64,000 nucleotides of DNA from Candidatus Magasanikiibacteriota bacterium (GCA_963802255.1 CAWDHY010000001.1:107274-171273); one strand, 5' to 3'. Counted from the first letter of the stretch, positions 1,937-59,408 are shown. The notes: a model not told the origin generated them from the letters alone. Made by a program: numbers and translations.

Positions 1937-2929
1937 ATGAAAAAAACAATTGGCATATTGGCGTTATTTATCGTTCTTATCGCTGGGGCGATGCTGTTTA
2001 GCGGGTGCGGAAAGAAATCTGATAATTCGGATATTAAGGACGGGAATACTCAGAAAATTGAAGATCAATCTGACAATTCAGAATTTATTATCGGTAAGCC
2101 TTGGATACAAGTAGTAAAAGAAGGTGTTTTTTTAGTTGTAGCTGACGCGGAAAATAAAGTTTTGAAAACAGGGGATGAAATAGATAATGGTGCGACAATT
2201 GAAACTGACGAGCATGGCTTGGCTAATGTATTTTTTCCGGACGGATCAGTAGCCAGACTTGATTCGCAGACCAAAATTACGGTTTTAACAGGAGATTTTA
2301 ATGAAAAAACTAAAACATTAACAGTCCGGATAAAATTAGTTGCCGGAAATTTATGGTCAAAAATTATGAAGCTGGCAACGCCAGAATCTGTTTGGGAAGT
2401 TCAGACCACTAATGCAGTCGCCGCGGTTCGTGGCACAGCATTTGGCATGAGTTTTTTTGAAGGAAATACCAGAGTGATCGGATCAGAGCATAATATTGAA
2501 GTTAACCCGGTTAATCCGGAGACGGGAGATGTTATTGAAAGCCAACGCGTAGTAGTTGAGGAACAAAAATATTTGGAGATATCAGATGTTTTGGCGCTTA
2601 ATTATGCCAGTGGGGAGAAATATCTGACAGATAGCATAAAGCAAATAAATGATGTTTTACTCAGCGAAGAGTGGATAAGGAATTCGCAGGAAGCCGACCG
2701 GGAAATAAATAATCGGTTGCAGAGTTTTGAAGAAAGCGGTTTAACAAGCGATCAGGCGCTTGAAAGATATCGTGAAACAATAAAAGAATTTGAGTTGTTA
2801 AATATCGGCGATGATTCGTCTTACAGAACAATTCAAAGTGATGACAGTATTGATTTGTTAGGTGTGACTCCGACTGATACCAGTACAACGACAGAACCGG
2901 TGGTGACTGAAAGAGTGCCACAGAAATAA
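1937..2929 (+). CDS. lipoprotein with a FecR-like domain
   Basis: signal peptide plus lipobox LFSGC; segment AVAAVRGTAFGMSF is typical of the FecR/DUF4974 fold. Confidence 0.45.
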   Translation: MKKTIGILALFIVLIAGAMLFSGCGKKSDNSDIKDGNTQKIEDQSDNSEFIIGKPWIQVVKEGVFLVVADAENKVLKTGDEIDNGATIETDEHGLANVFFPDGSVARLDSQTKITVLTGDFNEKTKTLTVRIKLVAGNLWSKIMKLATPESVWEVQTTNAVAAVRGTAFGMSFFEGNTRVIGSEHNIEVNPVNPETGDVIESQRVVVEEQKYLEISDVLALNYASGEKYLTDSIKQINDVLLSEEWIRNSQEADREINNRLQSFEESGLTSDQALERYRETIKEFELLNIGDDSSYRTIQSDDSIDLLGVTPTDTSTTTEPVVTERVPQK

Positions 2930-17482: not shown

Positions 17483-17555
17483 AGCGGGGTAGAGCAATTG
17501 GCAGCTCGTCGGGCTCATAACCCGAAGGTTCCCGGTTCAAGTCCGGGCCCCGCAA
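17483..17555 (+). tRNA. initiator tRNA-fMet (anticodon CAT) with an A1xA72 mismatch
   Basis: three consecutive G:C pairs 29-31:39-41 in the anticodon stem, loop CUCAUAA, unpaired 1:72, discriminator A; no encoded CCA. Confidence 0.8.
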
Positions 17556-17915
17556 CAAAGTTGCGAAGGGGCAGTAACCACTGCTCTTTTGTATTTGTGC
17601 CGCGCAGGGACGCTTTGCGTCCCGTAGGCGGCTAACCATGTTTTGCGTGAATCGGTTCAAGTCCGGGCCCCGCAACAAAGTTGCGAAGGGGCAGTAACCA
17701 CTGCTCTTTTGTATTTGTGCCGCGCAGGGACGCTTTGCGTCCCGTAGGCGGCTAACCATGTTTTGCGTGAATCGGTTCAAGTCCGGGCCCCGCAACAAAG
17801 TTGCGAAGGGGCAGTAACCACTGCTCTTTTGTATTTGTGCCGCGCAGGGACGCTTTGCGTCCCGTAGGCGGCTAACCATGTTTTGCGTGAATCGGTTCAA
17901 GTCCGGGCCCCGCAA
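17556..17915 (+). repeat. 3 x 120-nt tandem array; each unit is a 94-nt structured spacer plus a 26-28-nt copy of the tRNA-fMet T-loop/acceptor 3' end
   Basis: period 120 (ggttcaa at 17534, 17654, 17774, 17894); units virtually identical; internal hairpins gcagtaaccactgc and gggacgc-ttt-gcgtccc; the track ORF 17469..17918 is a translation of this repeat. Confidence 0.85.
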
Positions 17916-17958
17916 CAACTAAAAACATCTCCGCATAAGCGGAGATGTTTTTAGTTGT
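17911..17958. terminator. bidirectional terminator with a 22-bp perfect inverted repeat (caacaactaaaaacatctccgc / gcggagatgtttttagttgttg)
   Basis: long perfect stem with U-tracts on both strands; closes the tRNA array and the convergent perM-like gene. Confidence 0.6.
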
Positions 17959-29996: not shown

Positions 29997-31412
29997 ATGT
30001 CTATGGCACATAAAAAATATATAAATATTTTTGCCACCATGTTGCTTGTGGCGTTTTTGGTATTTACAGGTTTTGGCTGTAAAGGGTTAACTGCAGAGCA
30101 ACAATCAGCCACCAAACCGGTGTCCTTGGAATATTGGACAGTTTATGATGACGTTGATGCAATAAATGAATTAGTTTCAAGATACAAAGCGGAGCGTCCA
30201 TATTTAAGCATTACTGTTAAACAGTTGCGGTCGGAAGAGCTTTACGATCGTTTGCTTGAGGCGCTGGCTGAAGACAAAGGTCCGGATATTATTTCCGTGC
30301 ATGTGCGTGAACTGAAAAAATTTCAGAGTAAGCTGGCGACAATGCCGCCCAGCGTTTCAGACACGACTATGGTAAACCAGAAAAATGTTATCGGGCAAGT
30401 TGAAACGATTGTTAATATCCGGCCGGTTGCTATGCCAACTGCATTTAATATTGACAGGGAATATTTAAAGACGGTAAAAACGGACGTCATTCTTGATAAT
30501 AAGATATATGGGCTGCCCCTTTCACTTGATACGATGGCTATTTTTTATAATAAAGATTTACTAGACAGATCGCAAATAGCTGAGCCGCCGACAACATGGG
30601 CGGAATTTCAATCAGCGGTTAGAAAAATATCAAAATTTAATGCAGAGACAGGCCAAATAGTGCAATCCGGCGCCGCGTTGGGAAGTGCAAGCAATATTGT
30701 TGGGATTGATGATATTTTGTATATTTTGTTCAAACAGAGCAACGTAGAAGTAGTCAATCGGGATAATCGGGCGGTTTTTAATATCGCTCCATCAGGCTTG
30801 GGCAGTGGAGTGGAATCACCGGCCGCATCTGTCATGACTTTTTATTCTGATTTTGCCAATCCGACGCGTGACACTTATTCTTGGAACGAATCGATGGATG
30901 ATTCTTTAGAAAGTTTTATTCAGGGGAAAGTCGCATTTTTTATCGGCTATAGCTATCACAATTCGCAAATAAAAACACGGGCGCCACAACTTAATTTTGG
31001 CGTATTGCCTATGCTTCAGCTTGATCCTGAAAAACCCGCGAATGCGGCAAATTATTGGATACAAACAGTGGTGGGTAAATCAAAACATCCTGGTGAGGCG
31101 TGGGGATTGATAAATTTTTTAACGCACACAAAAGCAACCGAAGATTATTTAAATAAAACTAAACGCCCGACAGCCCTTAGGAGTCTTGTTGATAAACAAA
31201 AAGAAGATATTGATTTAAGCCCGTTCGTTTCACAGTTGTTGATTGCGGAAAATTGGTACAGGGGCACGGATTATGAAGCGGCGGTTCAGGCGTTTAAGGA
31301 CATGACGACCGAGTGGCAATCAGTGCCGCCGAATTATGCCGGCAGAGAAGCACAGTGGGGGCAGGAAGTACTGAACCGCGCTGCAGCAAAAATTAACCAG
31401 ACGCTGAAATAA
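29997..31412 (+). CDS. extracellular solute-binding lipoprotein (ABC transporter substrate-binding protein, family 1-like)
   Basis: signal peptide plus lipobox FTGFGCKG; about 470 aa; SBP-like composition. Confidence 0.5.
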   Translation: MSMAHKKYINIFATMLLVAFLVFTGFGCKGLTAEQQSATKPVSLEYWTVYDDVDAINELVSRYKAERPYLSITVKQLRSEELYDRLLEALAEDKGPDIISVHVRELKKFQSKLATMPPSVSDTTMVNQKNVIGQVETIVNIRPVAMPTAFNIDREYLKTVKTDVILDNKIYGLPLSLDTMAIFYNKDLLDRSQIAEPPTTWAEFQSAVRKISKFNAETGQIVQSGAALGSASNIVGIDDILYILFKQSNVEVVNRDNRAVFNIAPSGLGSGVESPAASVMTFYSDFANPTRDTYSWNESMDDSLESFIQGKVAFFIGYSYHNSQIKTRAPQLNFGVLPMLQLDPEKPANAANYWIQTVVGKSKHPGEAWGLINFLTHTKATEDYLNKTKRPTALRSLVDKQKEDIDLSPFVSQLLIAENWYRGTDYEAAVQAFKDMTTEWQSVPPNYAGREAQWGQEVLNRAAAKINQTLK

Positions 31413-32805: not shown

Positions 32806-32896
32806 TGATTGCGTAAAATATCATTTTAAGATAAAATATTTTTAAGTAATGATTATCCGGCACATAAGTGCCAATTCCTTGAAAGGGGGTGAAATT

Positions 32897-33310
32897 ATGA
32901 AAAAATTAGTAGTATTTGCAGCTTCATTTGCCTTGTTATTGGGTGGTTTTATGAGTTTCAATGTAGCTCCGGCATATGCCAGCGAAGGCGTTCTCGGTAC
33001 AGATGATTTAGGCATTGGATATGCAGCTGATACAGGTCTCGGTAGTGAAGATGTTCGTGCCACAGTTGCACGTATCATCCGAGTGGCCATGGGCCTGCTA
33101 GGTATCGTCGCTGTTGTTATTATTTTGATCGGTGGTTTTAAATGGATGACTGCCGGCGGTAATGAAGAACAGGTCGGAGAAGCTAAAAAATGGATATTCT
33201 CCGGTGTGATTGGTTTGGCTATTATTTTGTCAGCATATGCGTTAGCCAGCTTTATTATTTCTCAATTAGTCACGGCAACAACCGGGACGGGTTCCGGTAC
33301 GGGACTATAA
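32897..33310 (+). CDS. two-TM pilin-like protein, paralog 3
   Basis: SD GGGGGTG upstream of ATG 32897; core IILIGGFKWMTAGGNEEQVGEAKKWI..IGLAIILSAYALASFII. Confidence 0.6.
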   Translation: MKKLVVFAASFALLLGGFMSFNVAPAYASEGVLGTDDLGIGYAADTGLGSEDVRATVARIIRVAMGLLGIVAVVIILIGGFKWMTAGGNEEQVGEAKKWIFSGVIGLAIILSAYALASFIISQLVTATTGTGSGTGL

Positions 33311-33398
33311 GTTTTTTCTGTCAGGGGGTTCGCGCGCGCAACCCCCTGACAGAAATTCCGGTTTGGTTTTTTTAAAAAGAATCCAGACCAGAATAAAT

Positions 33399-33818
33399 AT
33401 GGCCATTAAAAGGCTTTTTCTAGTGTTGATATTAACGGGGGCATTTTTTTTGCCTGTGTTTGTTGGCGCTCAAGGAGAAATGAATGATAAATATGGTCTT
33501 GATAAAACAGCGAATAAGACTAAATTACCAACTCTTGGTATAAGCAAACAAACACCGGAAACGCTGGCTAATACTATTGTAACGACAGTTTTAATGTTCG
33601 TCGGAACGATTTTTTTCTTGTTGGTTTTGTATGCAGGATTATCCTGGATGACGGCCGGCGGATCTTCTGAAAAAGTTAATAAAGCTAAAATGATGCTGGA
33701 AACAGCGGTAATTGGCTTGTTAATTGTTGCTGCCTCATATGCTATTTCAATATTTGTATTTGAAAGGCTGACAACCCCGCCGGAAGTAACTGCTCCGGCA
33801 ACCTCAACAGCGCAATAA
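33399..33818 (+). CDS. two-TM pilin-like protein, paralog 4
   Basis: core LLVLYAGLSWMTAGGSSEKVNKAKMML..IGLLIVAASYAISIFVF. Confidence 0.55.
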   Translation: MAIKRLFLVLILTGAFFLPVFVGAQGEMNDKYGLDKTANKTKLPTLGISKQTPETLANTIVTTVLMFVGTIFFLLVLYAGLSWMTAGGSSEKVNKAKMMLETAVIGLLIVAASYAISIFVFERLTTPPEVTAPATSTAQ

Positions 33819-33821
33819 TGT

Positions 33822-34811
33822 ATGATTAAAAATTTTACAAAATTAACCGCAGCAGTTGTGGCCGCCTCGATCATGGTTGCATCATTGTGGATGGCGATAA
33901 ATGTTGTGAAGGCTCAAGGCGACGCGACATATGGCCTGCAAACAGCCGGCCAACAATCAGGTTTGGCATCAAATCAAATTTCCGCGGGTGCAGCGGGTGG
34001 AAGTATCCCGAAAGTTTTGGGTAATTTAGTATCAATTGCGTTGTCTTTAGTTGGCGTTTATTTTTTTATTTTGATTTTATACGCCGGACTTACATGGATG
34101 ACTGCCGCCGGTTCGCAGGAAAAGGTGGCATCGGCAAAAAGTCGTCTGCAGTCGGCGGCGATCGGCTTAGTTATTGTGCTTTCTGCTTATACTATTACCA
34201 GCTTTGTTTTTGATACTTTTATTCAAGAATCAGGAGAAGTATGCGCGAATACCCCGGATGGAGTATATGCTGCGGAATGTGCGGCTAAGGGCCTAAACCA
34301 AGTATGTAAAAGTCAAAAATGTGTAAGTGAGTGTGAATATGCCTTTAAAGATGCCGGAGGATCTTGTATTGATATCAATACAAAGTCATGCGAAGACAAA
34401 AAAATTATTTCAGGATTATGCAGTACTGAAGGTTTTGAATGTTGTATTCCTACTGAAGCATACGCCGCATGGGTTAGTTCTGGGGCTTCAGCGCCGGAGT
34501 CTGTGGAAAGCGGTACCTCGGAAAAAACCGCCTGTGAGAAGCAGCCGGGTTTCCAATGTGCGGAAAAATTTACTTGCGAGGACATTTTAAACGGGAAATC
34601 TTCCGACCCGCAAGGTTGCCCCACCGGGCAAGTTTGTTGTAAGAATTGTATGAAATTGGGGGGGCATTGTATTGATACTACAAGATTTGTCTGCAATAAT
34701 GAGCAAAAAAATCAGAAAAGCGGTTTTTGCTACGGAGCATATCAGGCCGCTGATTTTAAGTGTTGCATCGGCACATATGAATCGCAAGTCAGTGATATAT
34801 ATTTTAAATAA
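33822..34811 (+). CDS. two-TM pilin-like protein, paralog 5, with a ~190-aa Cys-rich C-terminal domain
   Basis: core ILILYAGLTWMTAAGSQEKVASAKSRL..IGLVIVLSAYTITSFVF; more than 20 Cys in the C-terminal region. Confidence 0.6.
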   Translation: MIKNFTKLTAAVVAASIMVASLWMAINVVKAQGDATYGLQTAGQQSGLASNQISAGAAGGSIPKVLGNLVSIALSLVGVYFFILILYAGLTWMTAAGSQEKVASAKSRLQSAAIGLVIVLSAYTITSFVFDTFIQESGEVCANTPDGVYAAECAAKGLNQVCKSQKCVSECEYAFKDAGGSCIDINTKSCEDKKIISGLCSTEGFECCIPTEAYAAWVSSGASAPESVESGTSEKTACEKQPGFQCAEKFTCEDILNGKSSDPQGCPTGQVCCKNCMKLGGHCIDTTRFVCNNEQKNQKSGFCYGAYQAADFKCCIGTYESQVSDIYFK

Positions 34812-34817
34812 TACTTT

Positions 34818-35291
34818 ATGAAAAAAATTATTGTATACATAATTGTCTCTCTGGCTATTTTGGCTCCGCAGTTTGTTTTTGCTGACGCATTGGGGACAAG
34901 TTTATTAAATAAATCAGTTGGGGGAGTTGGCCTTGAATCCAGTCTTGAGACAAGCACCGCGAATGTAATAATCGCAGTTTTGGCAGTAGTTGGGACAGTA
35001 TTTTTAGTTTTAACGGTTGTTGCCGGAATTATGTGGATGACCGCTTCCGGCAATGAAGAAAAAATTACAAAGGCAAAAAAAATTATAATTGGTGCGATTA
35101 TCGGCTTGGCAATTACGTTATTTGCCTACACCATTACCGCCTTTGTTTCTTCGCGATTAGTCCAAAGCGGCAATGTTGAAGGAACGAGTAATTGTAATCA
35201 AATGGGAGGAACTTGTGTGAGCGTCAGTACATGCCCTTCGGGTAATGTTATCGGTTCATGTCCGTCAGGAGATGTTTGCTGCAGTTTATAA
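34818..35291 (+). CDS. two-TM pilin-like protein, paralog 6, with a short Cys-rich tail
   Basis: core VVAGIMWMTASGNEEKITKAKKII..IGLAITLFAYTITAFV; tail CNQMGGTCVSVSTCPSGNVIGSCPSGDVCC. Confidence 0.6.
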   Translation: MKKIIVYIIVSLAILAPQFVFADALGTSLLNKSVGGVGLESSLETSTANVIIAVLAVVGTVFLVLTVVAGIMWMTASGNEEKITKAKKIIIGAIIGLAITLFAYTITAFVSSRLVQSGNVEGTSNCNQMGGTCVSVSTCPSGNVIGSCPSGDVCCSL

Positions 35292-35296
35292 TAATT

Positions 35297-35830
35297 ATGA
35301 AATTGCATAAAAAAATATTGGTTATTTTATTTGCACTGATTATTTTTCCTGTTTGCGTCGGCGCAGCCGATGAACCGAGAGGCCTTCAGACAGCAGGATC
35401 AAAACTCGGGAGCATACAATCATCAGTCGGTTTGTCATCAGATATATCTTCATTCACTGAAAATGCTTTGAAAGGTTTTTTCTATTTATTAGGCACGGCC
35501 TTTCTTATTTTGACCATATACGGTGGATTTGTCTGGATAAAAGCGGCCGGACGCGATGAAGAAGTAACCCGGGCAAAAAAAATTATCACCACGGCAGTTA
35601 TTGGCTTACTAATTTTGCTTTCATCATACGCCATTACTTTCTTTGTTTTATTGCGGATAGCGGGCGCACCAGTCAGCGGCGAACCTATAAGCGGGCCATC
35701 CGGCGGTAGTACCGCAGGCTTGGGGTGCTGTATGTCAACTGAAAATCCGGCTAATATTACGCCGATGTCAAAAGAGGCTTGCGTTGCAAAAGGCGGGGCA
35801 TTTATGTGGACGTCTTCACCATGCAAATAA
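35297..35830 (+). CDS. two-TM pilin-like protein, paralog 7, with a Cys-rich tail
   Basis: ATG at 35297 (the track begins at 35258); core LTIYGGFVWIKAAGRDEEVTRAKKII..IGLLILLSSYAITFFVL; tail GCCMSTENP..CVAKGG..SSPCK. Confidence 0.6.
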   Translation: MKLHKKILVILFALIIFPVCVGAADEPRGLQTAGSKLGSIQSSVGLSSDISSFTENALKGFFYLLGTAFLILTIYGGFVWIKAAGRDEEVTRAKKIITTAVIGLLILLSSYAITFFVLLRIAGAPVSGEPISGPSGGSTAGLGCCMSTENPANITPMSKEACVAKGGAFMWTSSPCK

Positions 35831-35855
35831 TCTATTAATATTTATCAGGGAAAAT

Positions 35856-36425
35856 ATGTTTAAAAAAAGATTACTGTTTATCGCAATGCTCGGTCTTTTT
35901 ATTTTTCCGATAATTGCTTATTGTGCTCCGAATATAGGGCTTGGACAGAGTGGAATGGCGCAAAATATTGCCGGTCAAGCTGGCTATGACACGAGTGGAG
36001 ATGAATACGCTTTATCGCGGACCATTGGCGGAATAATACGTGGTGTTTTATCTTTAGTTGGTGTAATTTTTTTGGTTCTAACTATTTACGCTGGCCTTCT
36101 TTGGATGACGGCATCGGGAGCGGAAGATAAAATCTCTAAAGCAAAAGATATTTTAAAATCGTCGGTTATCGGTTTAGCCATTGTTGCTTCGGCGTATGGT
36201 ATAACCGCATTGGTTATGAGTTTTGTCATCGGCGCATCGGCTCCAAGCACGGATACCGGCCAATACGGGCCAGAATCAACAATGGGCTGTTGTTATTGGG
36301 AGGCAGAAAAGAAGTGCGCCCAAACTACATCGGCGGCGACATGCGGACAAAAATGGGAAGATGCGAGGTGGTATGCCGGAGAATCATGCACTCCATATTT
36401 TGATTGTGAACATATTGAATATTAA
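35856..36425 (+). CDS. two-TM pilin-like protein, paralog 8, with a Cys-rich tail
   Basis: ATG at 35856; core LTIYAGLLWMTASGAEDKISKAKDIL..IGLAIVASAYGITALVM; tail GCCYWEAEKKC..CGQKWEDARWYAGESCTPYFDCEH. Confidence 0.6.
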   Translation: MFKKRLLFIAMLGLFIFPIIAYCAPNIGLGQSGMAQNIAGQAGYDTSGDEYALSRTIGGIIRGVLSLVGVIFLVLTIYAGLLWMTASGAEDKISKAKDILKSSVIGLAIVASAYGITALVMSFVIGASAPSTDTGQYGPESTMGCCYWEAEKKCAQTTSAATCGQKWEDARWYAGESCTPYFDCEHIEY

Positions 36426-38327: not shown

Positions 38328-38411
38328 GATTAAGAAAACATAGCCATTTTAGCATATTTTGCCCGAAAAATCAAGATGAGGTATAATATATACTATTAAT
38401 TGATATTTTAT

Positions 38412-38888
38412 ATGTATAGAATAGTACTACTGATAGTGGCGATAGCCAGTTTGCTATTTATCGGTGTTCAAGTGCAGGCGTCTGGTTTTGGTTTAAAGGA
38501 TACGGCGACAAAAGCCGGTTATGAGACGAGTGGAGAAGCGGCATCTGTCACCGGCCGAATTCAAACTATCGTTTCAGCAATTCTTGGTTTTGTAGCCTTA
38601 TTATTTTTTGGTCTTACTTTGTATGGTGGTTTAACTTGGCTAACCGCGAGAGGCAAGGAAGACAAAATTACTGAAGCTAAAGGCATACTTGAGGCCGCAG
38701 CCATTGGTTTGGTAATAATTGCCGCATCATACGCAATAGCAAATTTCATATTAGGACGGATATCACAATCTGCTGTCGGCTGTTGTAGCTATACTACAGA
38801 AGCAGGTATGGAATTTACAAATATTTCAAAAGAAGAGTGCGACACTCACAGCGGTGATTGGTCTGCCGGAGACTGCGGTGCCATATAG
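38412..38888 (+). CDS. two-TM pilin-like protein, outlying paralog 10, with a Cys-rich tail
   Basis: TATAAT box at 38382; ATG at 38412 (the track TTG is at 38400); core LTLYGGLTWLTARGKEDKITEAKGIL..IGLVIIAASYAIANFIL; tail GCCSYTTEAGMEFTNISKEECDTHSGDWSAGDCGAI. Confidence 0.55.
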   Translation: MYRIVLLIVAIASLLFIGVQVQASGFGLKDTATKAGYETSGEAASVTGRIQTIVSAILGFVALLFFGLTLYGGLTWLTARGKEDKITEAKGILEAAAIGLVIIAASYAIANFILGRISQSAVGCCSYTTEAGMEFTNISKEECDTHSGDWSAGDCGAI

Positions 38889-42322: not shown

Positions 42323-42406
42323 GCCGGGGTGGTGAAATTGGTAGACACGCAGGCCTTAGGAGCCTGTTCCCGCAAGGGATTGGAGGTTCGAGTCCTCTCT
42401 CCGGCA
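42323..42406 (+). tRNA. tRNA-Leu (anticodon TAG)
   Basis: long variable arm; anticodon loop CUUAGGA; T-loop TTCGAGT; acceptor GCCGGGG/CTCCGGC. Confidence 0.85.
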
Positions 42407-42436
42407 CAAAACGAGCCAATAGTTTGGCTCGTTTTT
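42407..42436 (+). terminator. hairpin aacgagcc-aatagtt-tggctcgtt followed by TTTT
   Basis: 9-bp stem plus U-tract right after the tRNA. Confidence 0.55.
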
Positions 42437-42556
42437 AGGACGAGAACGCCGGAGCGATGTTTGACGAACTTGCAGGTGAGGCAAACCGCGAGGCGGTGAC
42501 TAGCCCGAGTAGGCGGAAGCCAACGAGAGGCGAGGTCGAGTCCTCTCCCCGGCACC
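42437..42556 (+). repeat. family-B tRNA-appended structured element, copy 1 (downstream of tRNA-Leu-TAG)
   Basis: shares cores acgccggagcgatgt and accgcgaggcggtg(a/g)ctag with the element at 56351-56506 (minus strand); 3' end ggtcgagtcctctccccggcacca at 42534-42556 copies the tRNA 3' end; 5' end aggac-gagaac resembles an inverted T-arm. Confidence 0.55.
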
Positions 42557-42577
42557 AGTAGCAACTAAATATTTTAT

Positions 42578-42606
42578 AAAAATGGCCGTAATGGTCATTT
42601 TTATTT
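42578..42606 (+). terminator. weak hairpin (atggcc/ggtcat) flanked by A-tracts and T-tracts
   Basis: imperfect stem with TTTTTATTTT downstream. Confidence 0.3.
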
Positions 42607-42710
42607 TGTGAGTCACGGGGACTTGACCTATTCGTTAATTTGTAGTATAGTTTGAGGTTCAAGAAAGTAGAAAGTTGGCTGAAAAACGTTCTTTAACAAA
42701 GGAGAAAGCG

Positions 42711-43268
42711 ATGCAAAAAGCATTATTTTTATTCATATTCGCCATGTTTGTCGGCTGTGGGGCATCTGACCGTTTTGAAGTGATTGATGGTGGTGGTAGT
42801 GATTCTGACTCGGATAACGACACCGACACAGACACCGACACAGACACCGACACAGACACAGACACCGACACAGACACCGACACAGACACCGACACCGAGA
42901 CGGAGACTGAGGCTGATGCTGGCCCTCAGACGTGTGAAACGGCTTCTGACTGCGATGAAGACGAGGTCTGTGGTTATGAAACGCAAACTTGCTATCTGCA
43001 GCCAGAGCCCGGTGCGGACCAGTATTGGTACTGCTGGGATGATGGTCCGGACAGCGAAGGCCCTAGCTGTGACTCCTTTGATTTCGGCGGTTGCGATTAT
43101 TGGTCGCCAGAGGAGTGGCATTGGACCGATGTCCATCCCGCTTGCGGCTCTAACTATCCGCCGCCAGCTTGCCCGACGCATTATCCGACCACTCCAGCCT
43201 GTTGCCTCAAAAACAACGGTGAGGATGAGGACTGCATCGGCCAGGCCTTTTTTCCCCCTATTGTATAG
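42711..43268 (+). CDS. acidic Cys-rich lipoprotein with a (DT)12-(ET)2 repeat; GC-rich and compositionally atypical
   Basis: SD AAGGAG 6 nt upstream of ATG 42711 (the track start is 42675); lipobox FVGC|G; 18 Cys; local GC well above the window background. Confidence 0.55.
   Translation: MQKALFLFIFAMFVGCGASDRFEVIDGGGSDSDSDNDTDTDTDTDTDTDTDTDTDTDTDTDTETETEADAGPQTCETASDCDEDEVCGYETQTCYLQPEPGADQYWYCWDDGPDSEGPSCDSFDFGGCDYWSPEEWHWTDVHPACGSNYPPPACPTHYPTTPACCLKNNGEDEDCIGQAFFPPIV
42819..42902 (+). repeat. hexanucleotide simple-sequence repeat (GACACN)n encoding (DT)12
   Basis: gacaccgacaca... tract inside the lipoprotein gene. Confidence 0.9.
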
Positions 43269-43384
43269 ACCTAGGTCTGCTCTTTCCCTGCCATACGCCC
43301 GGCTATCCATGCCGGGTTTTTTTTCGCTATTTTTGCATATTTATTTGGTTATTATTTATCCACATTTTGTCCCATTTCATGCTC

Positions 43385-43413
43385 TTGACAACTTTTTTAT
43401 ACTCTGTTAATAT
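43385..43413 (+). promoter_or_regulatory. sigma70-like promoter (TTGACA, 17-nt spacer, TAATAT), candidate rRNA promoter
   Basis: -35 at 43385-43390 and -10 at 43408-43413, about 360 nt upstream of the 23S 5' end. Confidence 0.45.
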
Positions 43414-43769
43414 GTGCCTACGATTAAAACCCCTTTGGGGACCACGTCCAATCTCATGGATACAAATCGTATCCGCCTGGACCTCTGGGTAAGACTTTTA
43501 CTCAATTGTAAAAGACAGGTAATGTTAACCATTATCAAACAACTCAAATCTTACTCATAGTATCCAAGCGGTTCAAACTCACAAAAATTGAGTCGCTTGT
43601 CGCGGCTCATTTTTTTATCTCACACTCCGGCCAATATATTGGCAGGAGCAATGAGACAAGAAATGGATTGCACGTTGACAATTTAAATAGTTCAACAAAA
43701 AAAGCAGATTTATATCTGCTGGGTAGAACGCAACAAAACACTGTTTGGTGTTTTCGTTGTGTGCAATTT

Positions 43770-46870
<3,101 letters not shown>

Positions 46871-56281: not shown

Positions 56282-56350
56282 CATCTTTAATTATTTGGTC
56301 GCTTCGCCCCAACAAAACAAAAAAGCCCCCAAAGGGGTTCTTTTGTTTTT

Positions 56351-56506
56351 GTGGGTCGCCAGGGATTCGGCTTCAACTAAAATTTTCTTCCAAAAATTTT
56401 GTCTAGCCACCGCCTCGCGGTCGCGCTCGCTCTTTTGCATCGCGCGACATCGCTCCGGCGTCCGAATCCCTGTCGCGACCAAAACTGTTTGGTCGCTTCG
56501 CCCAAA
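56351..56506 (-). repeat. family-B tRNA-appended structured element, copy 2 (downstream of tRNA-Lys-CTT)
   Basis: minus-strand 3' end ccgaatccctggcgacccac (56351-56370) copies the tRNA-Lys 3' 20 nt exactly; 5' end cagggattcggac is an inverted copy of the Lys T-arm; family-B core motifs; the box tttggtcgcttcgccc plus a terminator module is duplicated at 56294-56345 and 56488-56537. Confidence 0.55.
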
Positions 56507-56539
56507 CAAAAAAATCCCTGACGGGACTTTTTTGTTTTG

Positions 56540-56612
56540 TGGGTCGCCAGGGATTCGGACCCTGGACCTTGTCCTTAAGAGGGACCTGCTCTACCAACTG
56601 AGCTAGCGACCC
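56540..56612 (-). tRNA. tRNA-Lys (anticodon CTT)
   Basis: cloverleaf; anticodon loop CUCUUAA; T-loop TCCGAAT; acceptor GGGTCGC/GCGACCC. Confidence 0.85.
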
Positions 56613-58551: not shown

Positions 58552-58702
58552 GTTCCTTACAAGAGTTTAAACGCTGAATAAAGGGTTGTAGTGTAGAGAT
58601 AGAATCTGATTGATCTGTCTAATGAATAATAATTTAACACCAACCTTTTATTGAGCGCTAAAGCTCACAAAAAACGTCCGCGTAGCGGGCAGGAGGTATG
58701 CA

Positions 58703-59125
58703 ATGAATCCGAAGATCGAAGTGGCCTGCTGCGTGTGCCAGAAAAACAAGTGCAAGGCATTCGAGGCCAGCACCTTCTCCCGCGTGAAGATCGCGGAGTC
58801 GCTCGGGCGGAAGCCCGAGGTGAAGGACCTGGTCGAGAAGTTCGCCATCTGCCCCAAGTGCCGCGAGAACGCGTTCGAGCGCTTCGAGGCGGAGGCGCAG
58901 GCCGAGAACCAGAAGTACGAGCCGCGCAACGAGCGCCGGATCGGCTGGCTCTGCCACGCGGCGAGCTGCCTCGAGGAGGAGGCGGCGTCCGTGAAGGCCA
59001 TGGCCAAACTCGGCGACCTCTTCGACTTCAAGTCGGTCGCGCCGGAGCCGGCCCCCGTGACCAAGCTGCCGGTCAAGCCGGCGGCCCCCAAGGTCCGCGG
59101 CAAGAAGGCGGTCAAGACGGGCTAA
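58703..59125 (+). CDS. foreign high-GC gene encoding a 140-aa Zn-ribbon-like protein (CCVCQKNKC ... CPKCREN)
   Basis: SD GGAGG upstream; GC3 near 90% against a genome-wide AT-rich codon bias; Cys pairs; C-terminal Pro/Ala/Lys-rich tail. Confidence 0.55.
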   Translation: MNPKIEVACCVCQKNKCKAFEASTFSRVKIAESLGRKPEVKDLVEKFAICPKCRENAFERFEAEAQAENQKYEPRNERRIGWLCHAASCLEEEAASVKAMAKLGDLFDFKSVAPEPAPVTKLPVKPAAPKVRGKKAVKTG

Positions 59126-59338
59126 CCATCGGTGGCGCCCGTCAGTGTCTCAGACAAATGAAGAAATGGAGGATCCGAATGCCCTTTCCCTAACGCTATC
59201 GCACCAAGACAGCGATACCCCCGTGTACGGGGTGAGGAGATCACATACCTCAGCCGGCAAGTTGTGAGAATCCACGCTGTGGACGCGAAGCCGAGTAACG
59301 CGTGAATCTCGGTGTTTCAACCTCAACATGTCGTACTT

Positions 59339-59372
59339 TTGCCCCCGCACAGAAATGTGCGGGGCTTTTTAT
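59339..59372 (+). terminator. hairpin gcccccgcac-agaaat-gtgcggggc followed by TTTTTATTT
   Basis: 10-bp GC-rich stem plus U-tract closing the high-GC block. Confidence 0.65.
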
Positions 59373-59379
59373 TTAGATA

Positions 59380-59408
59380 TTGACAATTTTTAAAAAAACG
59401 CGTATTAT
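59380..59408 (+). promoter_or_regulatory. sigma70-like promoter (TTGACA, 17-nt spacer, TATTAT)
   Basis: -35 at 59380-59385 and -10 at 59403-59408; downstream SD GGAGGAGG before ATG 59453. Confidence 0.5.

What the first reader, a model, noticed from the sequence alone, without database searches (positions are those of the whole stretch)
42711..43268. GC-rich, Cys-rich acidic lipoprotein with a slippage-prone (GACACN)n repeat, between tRNA-Leu and the rRNA promoter
The gene is compositionally atypical, like the 58.7-kb block (high GC, G/C-ending codons). It encodes a lipoprotein (lipobox FVGC) with 18 Cys and a perfect hexanucleotide repeat encoding (DT)12(ET)2. Repeat-unit gain or loss changes length in frame, so this is a candidate for length-variable surface display rather than on/off switching. 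Highly acidic DT repeats resemble Ca-binding or cell-wall-spanning spacers of Gram-positive adhesins. It is located directly downstream of the family-B element at tRNA-Leu(TAG), consistent with arrival by the same insertion process.
Basis: seen in the sequence. Interest (0 to 1): 0.55.

Follow-up and report, generated by a model that had tools for sequence, protein, structure and literature searches.

The report
Acidic-stalk, cysteine-rich lipoprotein in a variable slot
This is a real gene for a small surface lipoprotein of an uncultivated Patescibacteria (Magasanikbacteria-like) bacterium, built as lipid anchor, Asp-Thr repeat stalk and a 12-cysteine head of unknown fold; it sits in a gene slot that related genomes fill differently, and it was not brought in by the small element next to the tRNA.

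Summary
The ORF at 42711-43268 (+) is real. It has a conserved promoter, ribosome-binding site and terminator, and it evolves under purifying selection (pN 0.15, pS 0.72 against an orthologue).

- There are 13 Cys, not 18.
- The tract is (DT)13(ET)2, not (DT)12.
- The repeat is GACACM with C/A alternation, not a perfect hexamer.

The GC excess is real. GC3 is 0.55 against 0.40 expected from the gene's own amino acids (z = 4.6).

The product has three parts: a lipobox signal peptide, a 58-residue polyanionic spacer, and a ~110-aa domain in which 11 of 12 Cys are invariant. That domain has no Pfam, PDB or fold match, although the model is confident (pLDDT 86). Searches of billions of proteins found only about ten relatives, all in low-GC Patescibacteria-like contexts.

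Related genomes carry the gene in the same tRNA-Leu(TAG)-to-23S slot but lack the ~190-nt element, so the proposed arrival by "the same insertion process" is not supported. The slot itself is variable. It holds this gene (A), a second GC-rich lipoprotein gene (B), or both, in a pattern that does not follow PNPase relatedness.

Spacer length differs between homologues (46-81 aa). Strain-level slippage could not be tested.

The most likely function is surface display of a ligand-binding head. This is inferred, not shown.

The parts
42323..42407 (+). tRNA-Leu(TAG). This is the conserved left border of the variable slot.
   Evidence: ARAGORN and Rfam at 54.9 bits. The same tRNA precedes the homologous genes in L001, L002, L009, L010, L011 and L012.
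42408..42605 (+). Lineage-specific insert of about 190 nt. It is context, not part of the gene. It holds a hairpin followed by a T-run, a GC-rich core, a 20/23 copy of the tRNA-Leu 3' end at 42533-42555 followed by CCA, and a second hairpin.
   Evidence: It is absent from syntenic L001. A related element with a shared core (ACGCCGGAGCGATGT...ACCGCGAGGCGGTG) lies 3' of tRNA-Lys(CTT) at about 56330-56540 (-). There is no Rfam match.
42623..42651 (+). Sigma-70-type promoter-like site, TTGACC-17-TATAGT.
   Evidence: It matches 10 of 12 consensus positions. The block is conserved in L001 upstream of the orthologue (columns 360-420).
42700..42704 (+). Shine-Dalgarno sequence AGGAG, 6 nt before the ATG.
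   Evidence: Read from the sequence. L001 has AAAGGGGAAAGCGATG at the same place.
42711..43268 (+). Coding sequence of 185 aa plus stop (gene A).
   Evidence: The ORF is. It is the only frame open in all five full-length homologues. Against L001, pN is 0.148 and pS is 0.717.
42711..42758 (+). Lipoprotein signal peptide (residues 1-15) plus the lipid-attachment Cys16 (lipobox M-F-V-G-C).
   Evidence: Read from the sequence. G15-C16-G17 is invariant among the close orthologues. More distant homologues have LACG or LGCD.
42759..42932 (+). Polyanionic spacer, residues 17-74. It has 23 D/E and 1 K/R, and a 40-residue run of alternating acidic/X dipeptides.
   Evidence: An equivalent D-[STAI] tract of different length and sequence is present in every homologue.
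42819..42908 (+). Tandem DNA array: 13 units of GACAC[C/A] (42819-42896) followed by GAGACG GAGACT. It encodes (DT)13(ET)2.
   Evidence: TRF score 120. Perfect 12-nt period over 41 nt and perfect 30-nt period over 65 nt. The orthologues' arrays are degenerate, with 64-86% matches.
42933..43265 (+). C-terminal domain with 12 Cys, rich in aromatic residues and Pro (residues 75-185). It is an orphan family.
   Evidence: 11 of 12 Cys, plus W, D, Y, W and P positions, are invariant in 9 sequences. The AF2 model has pLDDT 86.3 and pTM 0.75. There is no PDB, BFVD or Pfam match.
43297..43325 (+). Intrinsic-terminator-like hairpin GCCCGGC-loop-GCCGGGT followed by a T-run.
   Evidence: The hairpin is conserved after the orthologue in L001 (columns 1085-1110).
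43385..43413 (+). 23S rRNA promoter-like site (TTGACA-17-TAATAT, with TG). This is the right border of the slot.
   Evidence: It lies within a block (43353-45045) that is 94% identical to L001. The 23S rRNA is at 43760-46861.

Best explanation
Gene A encodes a small envelope lipoprotein of a Magasanikbacteria-like (Patescibacteria/CPR) bacterium.

Proposed mechanism:
- The Sec/SPII signal peptide is cut at the lipobox, and Cys16 is lipidated. This tethers the protein to the outer face of the cytoplasmic membrane.
- A ~58-residue, almost purely anionic Asp-X spacer, here mostly (Asp-Thr)13, acts as an extended, self-repelling and possibly cation-binding stalk.
- The stalk carries a compact ~110-aa head. 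The head is probably locked by six disulfides and is rich in conserved aromatic residues. It most likely binds a ligand such as a glycan or a partner-cell surface component.

The stalk is encoded by a tandem array, so gain or loss of 6-, 12- or 30-nt units changes stalk length without breaking the frame.

The gene is a self-contained cassette with its own promoter, RBS and terminator. It sits in a hypervariable slot between tRNA-Leu(TAG) and the 23S rRNA promoter. Relatives fill that slot with this gene (A), a second GC-rich lipoprotein gene (B), or both. The cassettes' high GC is best read as foreign or ancient horizontal origin with graded amelioration.

Shown: gene reality, architecture, conservation, orphan status, slot variability, and independence from the mini-element.

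Inferred: lipidation, disulfides, stalk behaviour, ligand binding, and the origin by transfer.
For: Gene reality:
- Promoter, RBS and terminator are conserved with L001.
- Only this frame is open in all homologues.
- In the head domain, pN is 0.148 and pS is 0.717. The domain is 76% identical to its L001 orthologue, close to the neighbouring PNPase at 81%.

Architecture:
- The lipobox is at Cys16 in all full-length homologues, followed by a D-X tract and then the Cys domain.
- Linker length varies from 46 to 81 aa while the head stays conserved.
- 11 of 12 Cys are invariant, and there are no CxxC or CxxH motifs.
- The head model is confident and mainly beta (pLDDT 86.3).

Orphan status:
- Foldseek against PDB and BFVD finds nothing with E below 1.
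- A PDB sequence profile search gives 0 hits.
- Pfam, NCBIfam and PHROGs give only sub-threshold low-complexity hits.
- The exhaustive profile search of 1.84 billion representatives gives 5 hits.

Variable slot:
- A alone: the window.
- A and B: L001/L002, L005, L008, L010.
- B alone: L009, L011, L012.
- The pattern does not follow PNPase similarity. Window-L011 is 86%, window-L001 is 81%, and L001-L009 is 85%.

Composition:
- A and B exceed their flanks in GC3 in every locus.
- The distant homologue P0007 matches its host at GC3 0.345.

Background from the literature:
- CPR genomes are reported to encode Cys-rich extracellular proteins that vary between strains and are thought to mediate attachment. 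The same paper reports multiple lgt copies (PMC4736985).
- Staphylococcal SD repeats have been proposed to be cell-wall-spanning stalks (PMC3794999).
Against: - No experimental or expression data exist.
- Lipidation machinery (Lgt/LspA) and a disulfide-forming system were not looked for in this genome.
- The head model rests on only 8 sequences. A full-length model built from 3 sequences was poor (pLDDT 41.5).
- No integrase, and no direct repeat flanking the cassette, supports a specific transfer mechanism.
- Synonymous sites are saturated between orthologues. Retained high GC3 could therefore reflect gene-specific constraint rather than incomplete amelioration.
Confidence: 0.55

Rival explanations
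1. The acidic tract is the functional part, not a passive stalk. On this reading the protein is a membrane-tethered polyanion that binds Ca2+/Mg2+ or sets envelope charge, much as teichoic acid does. The Cys domain would only be a stabilising cap.
For: The mature protein has 46 D/E and 2 K/R. An acidic D-X tract is present in every homologue and also in the unrelated neighbouring lipoprotein B. It also occurs in other Cys-rich lipoproteins of L007 and L013.
Against: The tract's sequence and length are the least conserved part. The head is the most conserved part: 76% identity to the L001 orthologue, with pN well below pS. That pattern fits a spacer plus a functional head.
Confidence: 0.15
2. 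One reading: the gene is cargo that arrived recently with the small element inserted at tRNA-Leu(TAG).
For: The gene is GC-rich. It lies about 105 nt downstream of the ~190-nt insert, which duplicates the tRNA 3' end.
Against: L001 and L010 have the gene directly after tRNA-Leu with no such element. The duplicated tRNA end lies upstream of the gene and none lies downstream. The orthologues are as diverged as PNPase, which means they are old. The element has a second copy at tRNA-Lys with no such gene next to it.
Confidence: 0.03
3. The protein is an accessory component of the type-IV-secretion-like or conjugation-like apparatus of these bacteria, such as a tip adhesin or a lipoprotein.
For: Homologue P0004 lies immediately downstream of a PrgI / TraC-like / VirB4-type ATPase cluster. 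The window and L001 carry 6-7 PF18895 T4SS_pilin paralogues 4-10 kb upstream.
Against: Only one of about ten contexts shows direct adjacency. In the window the gene is separated from the pilin genes by tRNAs, S15, NYN and PNPase, and it has its own promoter and terminator. Relatives that keep the pilin genes have lost the gene (L009, L011).
Confidence: 0.1
4. It is not a gene. The ORF is a by-product of a GC-rich, stop-poor stretch.
For: Long ORFs also occur in another forward frame and on the antisense strand: 208 aa in a second + frame and 193 aa on the - strand.
Against: Those alternative frames carry stops in the homologues. Only the annotated frame is open in all five. pN is well below pS. 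The Cys pattern is invariant across 31-76% identity. Expression signals are conserved.
Confidence: 0.02

Closest known systems
Staphylococcal Sdr/Clf MSCRAMM adhesins (Ser-Asp dipeptide-repeat stalk)
   Same: Both have a long alternating Asp-X dipeptide tract placed between the envelope anchor and a globular ligand-binding domain. In the staphylococcal proteins the tract has been proposed to span the wall and expose the binding domain (PMC3794999). Tract length varies between homologues in both.
   Different: The topology is reversed: here an N-terminal lipid anchor replaces the C-terminal LPXTG sortase anchor. The repeat is Asp-Thr rather than Ser-Asp, and has 13-20 dipeptides against 25-275. 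The head is an unrelated 12-Cys domain, not IgG-like A domains. NCBIfam scores are 22-25 bits against cut-offs of 999-2500.
Size-variable repeat lipoproteins of Mycoplasma (Vlp, Vsa) (from my own knowledge)
   Same: Both are lipobox-anchored surface proteins of a small-genome bacterium. In both, in-frame tandem repeats change protein length rather than switching expression on and off.
   Different: In Mycoplasma the repeats form the C-terminal bulk of the protein and there is no conserved globular head. Expression there is also phase-variable, through a promoter homopolymer or DNA inversion. The promoter spacer here (42629-42645) has no homopolymer. This gene is single-copy, not part of a paralogue array.
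Cysteine-rich extracellular proteins of CPR bacteria (Peribacteria; PMC4736985)
   Same: Both are secreted, Cys-rich proteins that vary between strains or lineages. Both are proposed to mediate attachment in symbiotic CPR bacteria. One distant homologue, P0005, joins this head domain to disintegrin-like or Myxococcus-type Cys repeats.
   Different: The Peribacteria proteins are very large, averaging about 1,650 aa. This one is 185 aa, lipid-anchored, and has a single orphan domain. No sequence relationship to those proteins was tested or found.
tRNA-linked genomic islets
   Same: The gene is adjacent to a tRNA gene. It has atypical GC. Its presence and absence do not follow relatedness.
   Different: There is no integrase and no flanking direct repeats around the cassette. 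The unit is a single gene of about 0.7 kb with its own promoter and terminator.

Membership tests
Bacterial lipoprotein (SPII signal, PROSITE PS51257-type lipobox) | A positively charged n-region, an uncharged hydrophobic core, and then [LIVMF..][..][AGS]-Cys within the first 15-35 residues. | tested here: met
   The N-terminus is MQK-ALFLFIFAMFV-G-C16. The same layout, with Cys16, is present in P0001-P0004 and the L010 homologue.
Bacterial lipoprotein (SPII signal, PROSITE PS51257-type lipobox) | Lgt and LspA are encoded in the genome, and the protein is actually lipidated. | not tested
   The window was not scanned for lgt or lspA, and the rest of the genome is not available. Lipidation needs experiment. 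A paper on another CPR class reports multiple lgt copies (PMC4736985).
MSCRAMM Sdr/Clf adhesins | A Ser-Asp repeat region that scores above the family cut-off. | tested here: not met
   NCBIfam SdrD, ClfB, ClfA and SdrC score 22.7-25.1 bits against cut-offs of 999-2500. The matches cover only the low-complexity tract.
MSCRAMM Sdr/Clf adhesins | A C-terminal LPXTG sortase signal and N-terminal IgG-like A domains. | tested here: not met
   The C-terminus is ...GQAFFPPIV, with no LPXTG motif. No Pfam domain is detected.
Phase-variable contingency locus (simple-sequence repeat giving on/off switching) | A repeat unit that is not a multiple of 3 inside the ORF, or a homopolymer or repeat in the promoter spacer. 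| tested here: not met
   Units are 6, 12 or 30 nt, all in frame. The promoter spacer TATTCGTTAATTTGTAG has no repeat.
Length-variable repeat protein (in-frame tandem-repeat polymorphism) | A homogeneous tandem DNA array in frame. | tested here: met
   13 GACACM units, with perfect 12-nt periodicity over 41 nt and perfect 30-nt periodicity over 65 nt.
Length-variable repeat protein (in-frame tandem-repeat polymorphism) | Observed differences in copy number between strains or reads of the same population. | not testable with these tools
   No same-species sequence was found. Only between-species linker differences (46-81 aa) were seen.
tRNA-associated genomic island | tRNA adjacency, atypical composition, and presence/absence polymorphism. 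| tested here: met
tRNA-associated genomic island | An integrase gene, and direct repeats of the tRNA 3' end bracketing the island. | tested here: not met
   There is no copy of the tRNA-Leu 3' end downstream of the gene in the window or in L001. The slot has no room for an integrase.
Known Cys-rich small domains (Pfam Scytovirin PF20888, DX module PF01666, knottins) | A score above the Pfam gathering threshold, or a significant structural match. | tested here: not met

The most novel reading that the evidence does not exclude
Genes A and B would be members of a pool of GC-rich, self-contained 'surface-lipoprotein cassettes'. These would be exchanged among Patescibacteria and slotted next to tRNA genes by a mechanism that needs no resident integrase, so that host-contact surface proteins are swapped quickly. 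The 12-Cys head would be a truly new disulfide-rich fold that recognises a partner-cell envelope component.
Probability: 0.12. Interest if true: 0.6.

Novelty: new variant of a known kind. Interest (0 to 1): 0.35.

Why it matters
Patescibacteria (CPR) live attached to or dependent on other cells, and the surface molecules that mediate this contact are almost entirely unknown. This locus offers three things:
- A small, tractable candidate of 185 aa with one orphan domain.
- A clear architecture: lipid anchor, polyanionic stalk, disulfide-rich head.
- A hypervariable slot that could be compared across populations to see how such bacteria change their surface.

The head domain is a cheap target for structure determination and may be a new fold. 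As it stands, the finding is an uncharacterised accessory lipoprotein, not a new mechanism.

Tried and rejected
- **Family assignment.** Pfam, NCBIfam and PHROGs gave only sub-threshold or low-complexity hits. A PDB sequence profile search gave 0 hits.
- **Mobile-element origin.** There were no matches in phage records, plasmid records or IMG/VR.
- **Strain-level repeat variation.** Exact look-ups of this protein and of the window's PNPase found nothing. S15 matched only a 1.2-kb contig without DNA. The genome and metagenome scans returned only more distant orthologues.
- **Full-length AF2 model.** Built from 3 sequences, it was uninformative (pLDDT 41.5).
- **Structured RNA in the region.** Rfam at a permissive threshold found only the tRNA.
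- **Overlapping or antisense gene.** Rejected, because the alternative frames carry stops in the homologues.
- **GC excess explained by amino-acid composition alone.** Rejected (z = 4.6).
- **GC excess explained by translational codon selection.** Unlikely. Tyr is TAT 6 to TAC 1, while Glu shifts to GAG.
- **GC3 is intrinsically required by this protein family.** Weakened, because distant homologue P0007 has host-like GC3 of 0.345.

Full report
**1. What is in the sequence**

The ORF at 42711-43268 (+) encodes 185 aa. An AGGAG sits at 42700-42704, 6 nt before the ATG. A TTGACC-17-TATAGT promoter-like site lies at 42623-42651. A GC-rich hairpin plus T-run lies at 43297-43325.

The product begins MQKALFLFIFAMFVGC. 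It has a basic n-region, an uncharged hydrophobic core and a lipobox ending in Cys16.

The mature protein has 46 D/E and only 2 K/R. It has 13 Cys, not the 18 reported: Cys16 plus 12 in the C-terminal 111 residues.

The repeat is 13 units of GACAC[C/A] at 42819-42896, followed by GAGACG GAGACT. It encodes (DT)13(ET)2. It is not a perfect hexamer. Periodicity is perfect at 12 nt over 41 nt and at 30 nt over 65 nt, which points to recent duplications of 12- and 30-nt blocks.

**2. Composition**

Gene GC is 0.538 and GC3 is 0.554. The 62 long ORFs in the window average GC 0.41 and GC3 0.39. I re-drew codons for the same amino acids from the usage of 33 reference genes. Expected GC3 is 0.396 (z = 4.6). 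For the head domain alone z = 3.5.

Part of the total GC excess comes from the amino acids themselves (GC1 0.56, GC2 0.50), but the third-position excess is real.

The shift is a general G/C enrichment: GAC over GAT, GAG over GAA, TGC over TGT. It does not look like translational selection, because Tyr stays TAT.

Two other lipobox ORFs in the window (1937-2929 and 29997-31412) have ordinary composition. The anomaly is therefore not a general property of lipoprotein genes.

**3. It is a real, conserved gene**

A word-indexed search of 5.8 billion protein clusters found two relatives. P0001 comes from a Candidatus Magasanikbacteria MAG (GCA_026396515.1, Lac Pavin sediment). P0002 comes from a JGI metagenome.

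The MAG locus L001 is collinear with the window from about 36 to 50 kb, in this order:
- PF18895 pilin-like genes
- tRNA-His and tRNA-Arg
- S15, NYN and PNPase
- tRNA-Leu(TAG)
- this gene
- 23S and 5S rRNA
- HD and DeoC

Promoter, RBS and terminator are conserved. In the head domain, pN = 0.148 and pS = 0.717, which is saturated. Protein identity is 76%, close to the neighbouring PNPase at 81%. Only the annotated frame is open in all five full-length homologues.

**4. The family and its architecture**

An exhaustive HMM search of 1.84 billion representatives with the head-domain profile gave only five hits.
- P0003 (186 aa) and P0004 (163 aa) have the same three-part design.
- P0005 (540 aa) joins the head to disintegrin-like Cys repeats.
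- P0006 is a fragment.
- P0007 (646 aa) has the domain flanked by D-S/D-T tracts.

Two further copies turned up in L005 and L010.

Across nine sequences at 31-76% identity, 11 of 12 Cys are invariant. So are a Trp-Asp pair, one Tyr, one further Trp and three Pro. There are no CxxC or CxxH metal motifs. An extracytoplasmic domain with six disulfides is the simplest reading, but this is inference.

**5. The spacer**

Every homologue has an Asp-X tract between the lipid Cys and the head, but its length and sequence differ. Linkers are 58 (window), 65, 81, 68 and 46 residues.

In the relatives the tract mixes DS, DT, DI and DA. Its codons are heterogeneous: TRF gives 64-78% matches, and at most 4.7 hexamer copies at 86%. 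The window's tract is the only clean array.

The 5' edge of the tract (GATTCTGACTCGGATAAC) still aligns with the heterogeneous array in L001. The homogeneous DT block therefore looks like a recent expansion in this lineage.

Variation within a population could not be tested, because no same-species sequence is in the collections.

**6. Relationship to the element at tRNA-Leu**

The window has about 190 nt after the tRNA (42408-42605) that L001 lacks. This insert holds a 20/23 copy of the tRNA-Leu 3' end followed by CCA at 42533-42555.

A related element with the shared core ACGCCGGAGCGATGT...ACCGCGAGGCGGTG lies 3' of tRNA-Lys(CTT). It ends in a copy of that tRNA's own 3' end. The 'family-B element' is therefore real.

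The gene nevertheless lies outside the duplicated ends. No further copy follows it in the window or in L001. L001 and L010 have the gene without the element. The claim of arrival by the same insertion process is not supported.

**7. The slot is variable**

Searching with the second lipoprotein of L001 (gene B) found 13 relatives. Their contexts, together with those of gene A, show the following for the interval between tRNA-Leu(TAG) and the 23S promoter:
- A only: the window.
- A and B: L001/L002, L005, L008, L010. L010 also carries extra small genes.
- B only: L009, L011, L012.

Each gene has its own promoter-like site and terminator.

The pattern does not follow PNPase similarity. The window's closest relative, L011 (86%), has only B. 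L001 (81% to the window) has both. L009 (85% to L001) has only B. This requires repeated loss or gain.

A and B exceed their flanks in GC3 everywhere:
- L001: A 0.62 and B 0.73, against about 0.40 for neighbouring genes.
- L006: A 0.62, against 0.32-0.41.
- L010: A 0.69 and B 0.80.
- L011: B 0.50, against 0.34 for PNPase.

The size of the offset varies. The distant homologue P0007 is host-like, with GC3 0.345. This fits foreign origin with graded amelioration better than a fixed codon requirement. Because synonymous sites are saturated between orthologues, I cannot exclude gene-specific constraint.

There is no integrase and there are no flanking repeats. No homologue was found in phage, plasmid or IMG/VR collections.

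**8. Mechanism (inferred)**

The protein is probably lipid-anchored on the outer face of the membrane. The polyanionic spacer would hold a disulfide-locked, aromatic-rich head away from the membrane and through the wall or S-layer.

This works like the Ser-Asp stalk proposed for staphylococcal Clf/Sdr adhesins (PMC3794999), but with reversed topology and no family membership. It also fits the published view that CPR bacteria invest in Cys-rich extracellular proteins that vary between strains and serve attachment (PMC4736985).

A weaker lead is a link to type-IV-secretion-like machinery, since P0004 lies next to PrgI, TraC-like and VirB4 genes. A cation-binding role for the tract is a second alternative.

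**9. Verdict**

The gene is an uncharacterised accessory surface lipoprotein with an orphan Cys-rich head, sitting in a hypervariable tRNA-to-rRNA slot. I rate it a new variant of a known kind, of moderate interest.

Noticed in passing
window 42408-42605 and about 56330-56540 (-): These are two copies of a mini-element of about 130-190 nt. Each lies immediately 3' of a tRNA gene: tRNA-Leu(TAG) and tRNA-Lys(CTT). They share a core (ACGCCGGAGCGATGT ... ACCGCGAGGCGGTG[A/G]CTAG). Each ends in an imperfect copy of the 3' end of its own neighbouring tRNA. The tRNA-Leu copy is absent from syntenic L001. It folds better than shuffled controls (z = -4.1) and has no Rfam match.
   Followed up: partly
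window 17533-17918: There are 3.2 perfectly identical tandem copies of a 120-nt unit. Each unit begins with the T-arm and acceptor 3' end of the adjacent tRNA-Met(CAT) at 17483-17556. This could be repeated insertion or amplification of another element that targets tRNA ends. It makes a local GC peak of 0.52.
   Followed up: no
window 43760-46861, especially about 45046-45198: The 23S rRNA is 3102 nt, against 2975 nt in L001. The window carries roughly 125 extra AT-rich nucleotides at about 45046-45198. The 23S and 5S genes have their own promoter and no 16S gene upstream, so the rRNA operon is split.
   Followed up: partly
window 58651-59400: A sharp GC-rich block (GC 0.61 over 58801-59400). 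It contains an ORF at 58703-59125 (140 aa) with CxxC-type Cys pairs. It is unrelated in sequence to the lipoprotein.
   Followed up: no
L001 10664-11218; L005 752-1291; L008 967-1218; L009 5001-5492; L010 5001-5468; L011 5001-5504: Gene B is a second orphan lipoprotein of about 155-180 aa, with a short acidic linker and a conserved 'EVEVCSV..RFVF.HGEG' domain. Its GC3 reaches 0.80. It occupies the same slot between tRNA-Leu and 23S in relatives. The window lacks it, and no remnant is visible.
   Followed up: partly
L006 3489-6506 and 8001-8492; window about 32849-36425 and 38400-38888: Homologue P0004 lies directly downstream of a cluster of PrgI, TraC-like and VirB4-type ATPase genes. The window and L001 carry 6-7 paralogous PF18895 'T4SS_pilin' genes a few kb upstream of the locus.
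   Followed up: no
L007 752-9623 and L013 4394-9941: In two other low-GC genomes, several lipoproteins with D-S/D-T linkers and many Cys (up to 55) are clustered upstream of Wzy_C and GT4 glycosyltransferase genes. Their GC3 ranges from host-like (0.35) to 0.83. This looks like an island of similar surface proteins at different stages of amelioration.
   Followed up: partly
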